Below are positions 56,403 through 56,773 of a stretch of 64,000 nt of DNA, piece after piece (position 1 is the stretch's first letter; every line of letters begins with the position of its first letter). Source of the DNA: Escherichia coli (GTDB taxonomy: Bacteria; Pseudomonadota; Gammaproteobacteria; Enterobacterales; Enterobacteriaceae); the NCBI RefSeq assembly GCF_965641715.1, contig NZ_OZ282453.1; one strand, written 5' to 3'. The translations under genes were made by a program, and so were the position numbers. The notes beneath the pieces were generated by a model, which was given only the letters and a program-made list of their open reading frames with translations, did no database searches and was not told the origin of the DNA.

Positions 56403-56439
56403 GTTGTTGTTTTCGGTTCCGACAACGGTTGCCGGGTGC

Positions 56440-56715
56440 AGCGTAAAACGCCTTATCCATCCTACGGTTCTGTGCTCGGGACCTGTAGGCCTGATAAGAC
56501 GCGTCAGCGTCGCATCAGGCACTGAATGCCGGATGCGGCGTAAACGCCTTATCCGGCCTACGGTTCTGTGCTCGGGTCTTGTAGGCCTGATAAGACGCGT
56601 CAGCGTCGCATCAGGCACTGAATGCCGGATGCGGCGTGAACGCCTTATCCGGCCTACGGTTTTGTGCTCGGGTCTTGTAGGCCTGATAAGACGCGCCAGC
56701 GTCGCATCAGGCAAA
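56440..56715. repeat. BIME array: three tandem ~117-bp units of paired REP palindromes between wzxC and wcaK
   Basis: Unit GCCTTATCCGGCCTACGGTTCTGTGCTCGGG..TGTAGGCCTGATAAGACGCGTCAGCGTCGCATCAGGCACTGAATGCCGGATGCGGCGTGAAC repeated three times with few substitutions. Confidence 0.85.
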
Positions 56716-56773
56716 AAACGGCAACGAACACAACAAACACAGCCTCACCTGGCATCACATTTATGAGGAAAAA

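What the first reader, a model, noticed from the sequence alone, without database searches (positions are those of the whole stretch)
56404..56770. Three-unit BIME/REP array between wzxC and wcaK
Three near-identical about 117-bp units of paired REP palindromes lie inside the operon. Such arrays can act as mRNA stabilisers or partial terminators and as recombination or IHF/gyrase-binding sites, and could modulate expression of the distal wcaK-wcaM genes. Copy number here is likely to be strain-variable.
Basis: partly seen in the sequence, partly recalled or inferred. Interest (0 to 1): 0.2.

Follow-up and report, generated by a model that had tools for sequence, protein, structure and literature searches.

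The report
Ordinary BIME-2 REP array in colanic-acid operon
The stretch between wzxC and wcaK is a well-known kind of E. coli intergenic repeat (a BIME-2 array, called REP144 in K-12), here with three 96-bp units; other strains carry 0 to 6 units, so it is real but ordinary.

Summary
The repeat is real. The period is 96 bp, not about 117, and the array spans 56430-56713; the coordinates given (56404-56770) are the whole intergenic gap. Each unit holds a Y REP, a 19-nt G/U-rich linker, an inverted Z2 REP and a 5-nt linker (CTGAA). That is the BIME-2 architecture. The first Y is degenerate.

It is the same element as K-12 REP144. A systematic sample of 60 E. coli complete genomes shows alleles of 0, 1, 2, 3, 4, 5 and 6 units. 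Two units is the commonest and three is rare (3 of 60). Alleles differ by in-register whole-unit indels. In 77 other Enterobacteriaceae species the gap has a median of 29 bp, so the array is a secondary insertion.

REP indels at this gap and copy-number variation of BIME-2 are already published. The operon has a JUMPstart/ops element, so it is RfaH-type. The array has no intrinsic terminator, promoter or IHF site.

In K-12 (two units), wzxC and wcaK are induced equally (log2 4.45 each). That argues against a strong terminator.

The array lies in the opposite orientation to the studied REP325 model, and its sense-strand linkers are not C-rich.

Verdict: already known, low interest.

The parts
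54924..56402 (+). wzxC (colanic acid flippase), the upstream gene; stop codon TGA at 56400-56402
   Evidence: ORF. NCBIfam NF007773, 834 bits, full length.
56403..56429 (+). 5' flank of the array (GTTGTTGTTTTCGGTTCCGACAACGGT). It is partly complementary to the 3' flank and contains CGACAAC, one copy of a short direct repeat (consensus CGGCAAY) that brackets the array.
   Evidence: Sequence. The flank-to-flank stem appears in the fold. It is not distinguishable from shuffles when folded alone.
56430..56466 (+). Y REP number 1, forward orientation, degenerate (TGCCGGGTGCAGCGTAAAACGCCTTATCCATCCTACG)
   Evidence: In register with the other Y REPs. RNA hairpin only -8.6 kcal/mol. Below the blastn-short threshold.
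56467..56484 (+). Tail-to-tail linker 1 (GTTCTGTGCTCGGGACCT), G/U-rich on the sense strand
56485..56521 (-). Z2 REP number 1 (inverted relative to Y)
   Evidence: 100% match to the Z2 consensus over 37 nt. Hairpin -21.9 kcal/mol.
56522..56526 (+). Head-to-head short linker CTGAA
56527..56561 (+). Y REP number 2
   Evidence: 97% match to the Y consensus. Hairpin -21.3 kcal/mol.
56562..56580 (+). Tail-to-tail linker 2 (GGTTCTGTGCTCGGGTCTT)
   Evidence: 4 C and 7 G of 19.
56581..56617 (-). Z2 REP number 2
   Evidence: 100% match to the Z2 consensus. Hairpin -21.9 kcal/mol.
56618..56622 (+). Head-to-head short linker CTGAA
56623..56657 (+). Y REP number 3
   Evidence: 100% match to the Y consensus. 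Hairpin -21.3 kcal/mol.
56658..56676 (+). Tail-to-tail linker 3 (GGTTTTGTGCTCGGGTCTT)
56677..56713 (-). Z2 REP number 3, the last element of the array
   Evidence: 97% match to the Z2 consensus. Hairpin -21.9 kcal/mol.
56714..56773 (+). 3' flank: A/C-rich, G-poor untranslated stretch carrying the wcaK ribosome-binding site (GAGG at 56765-56768)
   Evidence: Sequence. Composition A28 C16 G9 T7.
56774..58054 (+). wcaK (colanic acid pyruvyl transferase), the downstream gene
   Evidence: TIGR04006, 935 bits, full length.
56488..56654 (-). Two Rfam naRNA4 (RF02564) matches on the strand antisense to the operon (56488-56558 and 56584-56654). Each spans a Y, the head-to-head linker and a Z2.
   Evidence: 81.9 and 79.7 bits against a gathering score of 59.5. 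The plus-strand matches score 54.7-55.4 bits, below threshold.
37533..37571 (+). JUMPstart element with ops (GGCGGTAGCGTG, 37560-37571) upstream of wza. It marks the operon that contains the array as RfaH-dependent.
   Evidence: Rfam RF01707, 57.3 bits against a gathering score of 35. ops pattern match. The wza ORF starts at 37750.

Best explanation
Identity (shown). This is a BIME-2-type array of REP sequences and the local allele of the element annotated REP144 in E. coli K-12. It has three tandem 96-bp units. Each unit is a Y REP, a 19-nt tail-to-tail linker, an inverted Z2 REP and a 5-nt head-to-head linker.

Origin (shown). It is a secondary, lineage-specific insertion into a gene junction that is about 15-30 bp in other Enterobacteriaceae. 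Its copy number changes between E. coli lineages by in-register gain or loss of whole units.

How the copy number changes (inferred). The likely routes are unequal homologous recombination or replication slippage between units, possibly helped by the REP-associated transposase TnpA-REP.

What it does (inferred).
- The array is transcribed as part of the long RfaH-dependent colanic-acid mRNA, where it forms five strong hairpins and one weak one.
- The most likely effect is modest and local. The hairpins would act as a barrier to 3'-to-5' exonucleases, protecting the upstream wza-wzxC part of the mRNA after cleavage.
- They would cause at most weak attenuation of read-through into wcaK-wcaL-wcaM.
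- It is not a discrete terminator and not a required regulatory part of the operon.
- On DNA it is a candidate gyrase site, as BIME-2 elements are. It is not an IHF site.
For: Architecture:
- Period 96, 2.9 copies.
- Alternating Y (forward) and Z2 (inverted) REPs at 97-100% identity to consensus.
- The layout matches the published BIME-2 definition: z2 and y, multiple tandem copies, short head-to-head linker, s/l/r flanking linker, copy number variable between strains (PMC3333891).
- It has the same Y / head-to-head linker / Z2 / tail-to-tail linker plan as K-12 REP325, and it matches the Rfam model built from REP325.

Same locus in K-12: REP144, 2118467-2118652, listed as a tandem pair wzxC/wcaK (supplement of bioRxiv 10.64898/2026.03.23.713779).

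Copy number:
- The flank-only query gave spans that step by 96 bp in a systematic sample of 60 of 4684 genomes.
- Counts were 0 units 7, 1 unit 9, 2 units 19, 3 units 3, 4 units 6, 5 units 6, 6 units 3, other alleles 6, partial match 1.
- One example of each class was read at sequence level.
- The O157:H7 one-unit allele equals the window gap minus exactly 192 bp, with 2 mismatches.

Secondary insertion: the median gap is 29 bp in 77 other species genomes, commonly 14-17 bp holding only the ribosome-binding site.

Effect on expression:
- No intrinsic terminator or promoter.
- JUMPstart/ops lies upstream of wza.
- Hairpins fold at -21 to -22 kcal/mol.
- wcaK is co-induced with wzxC to the same log2 ratio across the two-unit K-12 array (PMC3599342).
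- The dual stabiliser and partial-terminator behaviour of a BIME-2 array inside an operon is shown experimentally for REP325.

Gyrase: cleavage sites are enriched in BIME-2 elements genome-wide (PMC6379681).
Against: - No transcript data exist for this strain or for a three-unit allele. The K-12 data are microarray fold-changes, not absolute coverage, so a constant proportional attenuation would be invisible in them.
- REP325 with six units gives a roughly 35-fold upstream/downstream ratio, so a real effect here cannot be excluded.
- The exonuclease-barrier role is transferred from other REPs and is reported to be context-dependent.
- Gyrase cleaves only a subset of BIME-2 elements, and this locus was not checked.
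Confidence: 0.85

Rival explanations
1. The array is a partial, Rho-dependent transcription terminator that scales with copy number. It sets the expression of the distal genes wcaK-wcaL-wcaM relative to upstream genes, so that lineages with 0-6 units differ in late colanic-acid steps.
For: - REP325, a six-unit BIME-2 array inside the yjdMN operon, lowers downstream yjdN. The upstream/downstream ratio falls from 35 to 1 on deletion.
- In that study partial Rho dependence appears only with the full array, not with 2-4 hairpins.
- REP-containing tandem gene pairs show upstream-biased expression genome-wide (abstract).
- The 371-nt gap is untranslated, and its 3' flank is A/C-rich and G-poor.
- Fold-induction declines along the distal operon: wcaK 4.45, wcaL 3.63, wcaM 2.71.
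Against: - There is no step at the array itself in K-12: wzxC 4.45, wcaK 4.45. The decline is a smooth gradient along the whole operon.
- The operon carries JUMPstart/ops. By established knowledge, RfaH-modified RNA polymerase resists Rho-dependent termination.
- The array faces the opposite way to REP325 relative to transcription. Its sense-strand linkers are G/U-rich (3-5 C and 7 G of 19), against 9 C and 1 G of 17 in REP325.
- The in-vitro Rho-binding peak at REP144 is on the strand antisense to wzxC.
- Alleles with 0 units and with an unrelated gap sequence are common, so no particular dose is required.
Confidence: 0.2
2. The array encodes naRNA4-like small RNAs that bind HU and help condense the nucleoid, as proposed for REP325.
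For: - Two Rfam RF02564 matches lie above the gathering score: 81.9 and 79.7 bits against 59.5.
- The 2015 study proposed that role for naRNA4 (PMC4550694).
Against: - The above-threshold matches are on the minus strand, antisense to the operon. The sense-strand matches are below threshold.
- No promoter-like site lies on either strand in 55800-57300.
- The Rfam model was built from one BIME-2 unit, so it recognises any Y-Z2 pair. This says nothing about an sRNA gene here.
- A 2026 preprint from a group that includes an author of the original study finds no measurable nucleoid compaction by REP325 or naRNA4.
Confidence: 0.03
3. The main role is on DNA. The array is a strong, transcription-independent gyrase site that relieves supercoiling inside a 21-kb, heavily transcribed operon. 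This is not exclusive of the best explanation.
For: - Gyrase cleavage sites are over-represented in BIME-2 elements, preferentially in Y REPs, and persist when transcription is blocked (PMC6379681).
- This array has two canonical Y REPs and one degenerate one.
Against: - Only a subset of BIME-2 elements is cleaved, and this locus was not examined.
- Alleles with no array are common.
- In other genera the junction is 15-30 bp with no repeat.
Confidence: 0.3
4. The gap is protein-coding. ORF 56404-56766 (+, 120 codons, TTG start) or ORF 56388-56714 (-, 108 codons) encodes a repeat protein. The 96-bp period is a multiple of three, so the frame stays open.
For: Both ORFs are listed. The period of 96 equals 32 codons.
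Against: - No Pfam family at a meaningful score.
- No CDS is annotated here in any of the nine RefSeq records inspected.
- The sequence is absent in the 0-unit alleles and replaced in other alleles.
- The ORFs are simply read through palindromic REPs.
Confidence: 0.01

Closest known systems
REP144 of E. coli K-12 MG1655 (wzxC-wcaK intergenic BIME, NC_000913.3 2118467-2118652)
   Same: It lies in the same locus with the same flanking genes, the same Y/Z2 units and the same linkers (L009). It is the orthologous element.
   Different: K-12 has two units (275-bp gap) and the window has three (371-bp gap). The first Y REP is intact in K-12 and degenerate here (GGGTGCAGCG, CCATCC), as it also is in O157:H7 and H10407.
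REP325 of E. coli K-12 (yjdM-yjdN BIME-2 array; source of naRNA1-6 and of Rfam RF02564)
   Same: - It is a tandem Y / head-to-head linker / Z2 / tail-to-tail linker array lying between two co-directional genes of one operon.
- It is experimentally a partial Rho-dependent terminator and an upstream mRNA stabiliser.
   Different: - REP325 has six units of 100 bp, an 11-nt head-to-head linker and a C-rich 17-nt tail-to-tail linker.
- This array has three units of 96 bp and a 5-nt head-to-head linker.
- This array faces the opposite way relative to transcription, so its sense-strand linkers are G/U-rich.
- The host operon here is RfaH-dependent.
BIME-1 (Y + Z1 REPs with the long L linker that binds IHF; also called RIP or RIB elements)
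   Same: It is built from REP palindromes in inverse orientation in an intergenic region.
   Different: BIME-1 occurs as a single copy with Z1 and an L linker carrying an IHF site. Here the partner REP is Z2, the head-to-head linker is 5 nt, the units are tandem, and no IHF consensus is present.
malE-malF REP mRNA stabiliser (Newbury et al. 1987; cited from my own knowledge, not read here)
   Same: REP hairpins between genes of a polycistronic operon act as 3'-to-5' exonuclease barriers, giving higher upstream than downstream expression.
   Different: The effect is shown experimentally at mal and has not been tested here. Copy number and REP types also differ.

Membership tests
BIME-2 | Composed of y and z2 REPs in alternating, inverse orientation | tested here: met
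   Y (forward) sits at 56527-56561 and 56623-56657. Z2 (inverted) sits at 56485-56521, 56581-56617 and 56677-56713. All match at 97-100% identity. The Rfam Y-Z2 model also matches. The first Y is degenerate.
BIME-2 | Short head-to-head linker (S) between REP and iREP, and an s, l or r tail-to-tail flanking motif | tested here: inconclusive
   The architecture fits: a 5-nt head-to-head linker CTGAA and a 19-nt tail-to-tail linker. I had no consensus for the named S, s, l and r motifs, so motif identity was not tested. The linkers differ from those of REP325.
BIME-2 | Occurs as multiple tandem copies whose number varies between strains at a given locus | tested here: met
   There are 2.9 copies here. 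E. coli complete genomes carry 0-6 units at this locus.
BIME-2 | Extragenic location | tested here: met
   It lies wholly between the wzxC stop (56402) and the wcaK start (56774).
BIME-2 | Bound and cleaved by DNA gyrase | not testable with these tools
   This is known for a subset of BIME-2 elements (PMC6379681). No data for this locus were seen.
BIME-1 | y + z1 REPs, single copy, long L linker with an IHF binding site | tested here: not met
   Z2 was the best match at every partner REP and Z1 was never best. The head-to-head linker is 5 nt. The only WATCAANNNNTTR match in the window is at 24829, far from the array.
naRNA4 (Rfam RF02564) | Covariance-model score at or above the gathering threshold | tested here: met
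   The minus strand scores 81.9 and 79.7 bits against 59.5. The plus (operon sense) strand scores 54.7-55.4 bits, below threshold.
naRNA4 (Rfam RF02564) | Expressed as a discrete small RNA | not testable with these tools
   No promoter-like site lies on either strand nearby. The matching strand is antisense to the operon.
Intrinsic (Rho-independent) terminator | G+C-rich hairpin followed by a U tract | tested here: not met
   No terminator-like site was found in the gap. The last Z2 is followed by AAAAAACGG.
REP translation down-regulators (REP within about 15 nt of a stop codon; Liang, Rudd and Deutscher 2015, from my own knowledge) | REP stem begins no more than about 15 nt after the upstream stop codon | tested here: not met
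   The first REP stem begins 28 nt after the wzxC stop, and that REP is the degenerate one.

The most novel reading that the evidence does not exclude
The orientation and copy number of the array matter. Its C-rich linkers lie on the antisense strand, and the in-vitro Rho-binding peak at K-12 REP144 is also antisense. The array could therefore be a strand-specific Rho-dependent stop for antisense transcription entering the colanic-acid operon from downstream. In the sense direction, RfaH-modified polymerase would pass it, and its 0-6 hairpin pairs would tune the stability of the upstream mRNA segment. On this reading, copy number would be a heritable, lineage-specific dial on the stoichiometry of early versus late colanic-acid enzymes.
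Probability: 0.1. Interest if true: 0.35.

Novelty: already known. Interest (0 to 1): 0.08.

Why it matters
It matters little beyond correct annotation. The element should be labelled a BIME-2 (REP144-type) array. It should not be called an ORF, a terminator or an 'naRNA4 gene', although the Rfam hit invites that last label.

The locus offers a natural allelic series of 0-6 identical units inside one long RfaH-dependent operon. That series could serve as a test bed for the recent proposal that REP arrays act as context-dependent 'dials' on operon expression. It also offers the opposite orientation to the one case studied so far, REP325.

Tried and rejected
- **IHF site:** the pattern WATCAANNNNTTR gave one hit in 64 kb, at 24829, and none in the gap. 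Rejected.
- **Promoter or intrinsic terminator:** none was found in the gap on either strand. Rejected.
- **Coding potential of the two ORFs across the array:** there was no meaningful Pfam hit and no annotation in the RefSeq records. Rejected.
- **Recombination junction at the gap:**
  - Ungapped identity of the 593-bp wzxC flank against the 561-bp wcaK flank showed no clear left/right discordance among eight alleles; differences were at most 3 points.
  - This sample is too small to contradict PMC3158064, but it gives no support.
- **Older hairpin at the empty site:**
  - The 0-unit allele has an 8-bp stem (GUUGUUUU/AAAACAAC), and the array's flanks pair with each other.
  - Neither fold differs from shuffles, with z about -0.9 to -1.0. 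I treat this as unproven.
- **Searches that failed for technical reasons:**
  - A fuzzy-regex REP scan timed out and was replaced by blastn-short.
  - Bachellier et al. 1997 (PMC1207841) is not held, so the original S/s/l/r motif tables could not be consulted.
- **Basal RNA-seq counts:** the Harris et al. supplement gives baseMean values of 36 for wzxC and 91 for wcaK. These are uninduced, near-noise values, and I did not use them as evidence.

Full report
**What is in the sequence**

The gap between the ORF at 54924-56402 and the ORF at 56774-58054 is 371 bp. NCBIfam equivalog models identify the two ORFs as WzxC and WcaK.

Tandem Repeats Finder reports one array at 56430-56713 with period 96, 2.9 copies, 94% matches and score 496. 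The repeat finder shows three in-register 96-nt copies. Its coordinates (56404-56770) are those of the whole gap rather than the array.

**Anatomy of a unit**

Each unit reads, on the plus strand:
- a Y REP (TGCCGGATGCGGCGTrAACGCCTTATCCGGCCTAC);
- a 19-nt G/U-rich tail-to-tail linker (GGTTCTGTGCTCGGGTCTT);
- an inverted Z2 REP (GTAGGCCTGATAAGACGCGTCAGCGTCGCATCAGGCA);
- a 5-nt head-to-head linker (CTGAA).

Five of the six REPs match the Y or Z2 consensus at 97-100%. Each folds as RNA at -21 to -22 kcal/mol on either strand. The first Y is degenerate at -8.6 kcal/mol. The gap as a whole folds at -187.9 kcal/mol, z = -8.5.

This layout fits the published definition of BIME-2: y and z2 REPs, multiple tandem copies, a short head-to-head linker, and s/l/r flanking linkers. 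BIME-1 differs in having z1 and a long L linker with the IHF site (PMC3333891). No IHF consensus lies in the gap. There is also no sigma-70-like promoter and no hairpin-plus-U-tract terminator.

**The Rfam hit**

Rfam reports two naRNA4 (RF02564) matches above the gathering score. Both are on the minus strand, antisense to the operon, at 81.9 and 79.7 bits against 59.5. The sense-strand matches score about 55 bits and fall below threshold.

naRNA4 is one unit of K-12 REP325 (PMC4550694). I fetched REP325 and laid it beside this array. The plan is the same: Y, head-to-head linker, Z2, tail-to-tail linker. REP325 has a period of 100, different linkers and six units.

Relative to the direction of operon transcription, the two arrays face opposite ways. 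The yjdMN mRNA reads Y(reverse)-Z2(forward), and its tail-to-tail linker is C-rich (9 C and 1 G of 17). The cps mRNA reads Y(forward)-Z2(reverse), and its linkers are G/U-rich (3-5 C and 7 G of 19). The Rfam match therefore shows that this is a Y-Z2 unit. It does not show that an sRNA gene is present.

**Comparison across E. coli**

The gap with 150 bp of flank matches 5425 of 5426 complete genomes at a median of 37 places per genome. This reflects the dispersed REP family.

A 1200-bp query made only of the two coding flanks matched 4684 genomes. In a systematic 'spread' sample of 60, the spans step by 96 bp:

| Span (bp) | Units | Genomes | Examples |
|---|---|---|---|
| 1224-1225 | 0 | 7 | |
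| 1332-1333 | 1 | 9 | O157:H7 strains |
| 1425-1430 | 2 | 19 | K-12 derivatives |
| 1525-1527 | 3 | 3 | the window's near-identical relative CFSAN061763, 99.9% |
| 1620-1622 | 4 | 6 | ZH063 |
| 1716-1718 | 5 | 6 | H10407 |
| 1814-1816 | 6 | 3 | UTI89 |
| 1315 | other allele | 5 | |
| 1299 | other allele | 1 | |

One further record was a partial match.

I read one example of each class:
- The arrays are in-register multiples of the same unit.
- The 1315-bp class has an unrelated 161-bp gap with a boxC-like G+C-rich palindrome.
- The 1299-bp allele is a single Y REP plus an internally deleted unit.
- The O157:H7 allele equals the window gap minus exactly 192 bp (two units), with the junction in the linker and only 2 mismatches.

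Strains of one clone share a copy number: all O157:H7-like rows have 1 unit and all K-12 rows have 2. The number therefore varies between lineages rather than being hypermutable.

**Comparison across species**

WcaK-encoding loci were fetched from one genome per species. In 77 species genomes, nearly all non-E. coli, the wzxC-wcaK gap has a median of 29 bp. Many are 14-17 bp and hold only the ribosome-binding site.

Longer gaps carry other palindromic repeat families:
- boxC-like elements in Kosakonia, Lelliottia, Pluralibacter and Pseudenterobacter;
- a Y-like REP pair in Citrobacter amalonaticus;
- a single Z2 in E. whittamii.

The array is thus a secondary insertion at a junction that repeatedly collects intergenic palindromes. 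It is not an ancestral part of the operon.

**What is already published**

- The element is annotated in K-12 as REP144, a tandem pair wzxC/wcaK (supplement of bioRxiv 10.64898/2026.03.23.713779).
- Iguchi et al. 2011 described REP sequences, REP-containing indels and a similarity junction in the wcaK-wzxC gap among O157 strains (PMC3158064).
- Copy-number variation of tandem BIME-2 at a given locus between strains is stated as a general property (PMC3333891).
- Gyrase cleavage is enriched in BIME-2 elements (PMC6379681).

**How it most likely works**

Shown:
- The operon has a JUMPstart/ops element upstream of wza, at 37533-37571.
- The array has no intrinsic terminator.
- In MG1655 (two units) induced with colicin M, log2 ratios fall smoothly along the operon: wcaJ 4.82, wzxC 4.45, wcaK 4.45, wcaL 3.63, wcaM 2.71. 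There is no step at the array (PMC3599342).

Inferred:
- The array is read through as part of the long RfaH-dependent mRNA.
- Its hairpins probably act as a barrier to 3'-to-5' exonucleases for the upstream segment, and they attenuate read-through at most weakly.

The REP325 work shows that a six-unit BIME-2 array inside an operon can be both a stabiliser and a partial Rho-dependent terminator. In that work, fragments of 2-4 hairpins showed no Rho dependence.

Four points here argue against a strong sense-strand terminator:
- the array has only three units;
- it is oriented opposite to REP325 and has G/U-rich sense linkers;
- the in-vitro Rho peak at REP144 is antisense;
- the operon uses RfaH.

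The common 0-unit and replaced alleles show that no particular dose is required.

Caveat: the K-12 data are fold-changes from a two-unit strain. No transcript data exist for a three-unit allele.

**Verdict**

The identification as a BIME/REP array and the prediction of variable copy number are correct. The IHF and terminator suggestions are not supported by what could be tested. The element, its variability and its likely roles are already described, so it is ordinary and of low interest.

Noticed in passing
window 41528-41562 and 51912-52013: Two more REP sites lie inside the same colanic-acid operon. One is a single Y REP in the wzc-wcaA gap. The other is a small BIME (Z2 fragment, Y, Z2) in the cpsB-cpsG gap. 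Both gaps are also listed as REP-containing by Iguchi et al. 2011.
   Followed up: partly
window 21154-22284 (minus strand): Four tandem Sib RNA genes (Rfam RF00113, 127-142 bits) sit at about 330-bp spacing. These are presumably Sib/Ibs type I toxin-antitoxin repeats. By my recollection K-12 has two at the corresponding site, so this may be another copy-number-variable array.
   Followed up: no
window 52049-52098 (+): An Rfam 'algC RNA' cis-regulatory motif (RF02929, 78.2 bits against a gathering score of 33.8) lies immediately upstream of, and overlapping, the start of cpsG, the phosphomannomutase gene. The mechanical ORF start at 52055 (TTG) is 16 codons upstream of where the NCBIfam CpsG model begins.
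   Followed up: no
window 62003-62041 (+) and 37533-37571 (+): There are two JUMPstart/ops elements (GGCGGTAGCGTG). One lies upstream of wza. The other lies downstream of wcaM, presumably heading the O-antigen cluster.
   Followed up: partly
L007 (NZ_CP060873.1, E. coli EC27) positions 594-754; the same class in 5 of 60 sampled genomes: This alternative wzxC-wcaK gap allele has 161 bp with no REP. It carries a boxC-like palindrome (CCCTCACCCTAACCCTCTCCCCAGGGGGCGAGGGGAC) and a different ribosome-binding region (GAGGTCATA). It resembles the gaps of other genera such as Kosakonia and Lelliottia more than those of other E. coli.
   Followed up: partly
L002 (NZ_CP098201.1) positions 594-664, against window 56403-56429 and 56714-56740: - The 0-unit allele reads ...CCGGCAAT|AAAAACAACAAC...
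- In occupied alleles the array is bracketed by a short direct repeat (consensus CGGCAAY) and by partly complementary flanks (GTTGTTGTTTTCG / CGAAnACAACAAAC).
- This could be a target duplication on insertion, or the substrate for precise deletion.
- The flank hairpin is not better than shuffles.
   Followed up: partly
E. coli genome collection: 742 of 5426 complete E. coli genomes gave no megablast match to the 1200-bp wzxC/wcaK flank query. One sampled record (H120) matched wcaK only, at 82%. Some lineages may therefore lack the distal colanic-acid genes or have replaced them.
   Followed up: no
window 6960-7045 (minus strand): A CyaR/RyeE sRNA gene (Rfam RF00112, 100.7 bits).
   Followed up: no
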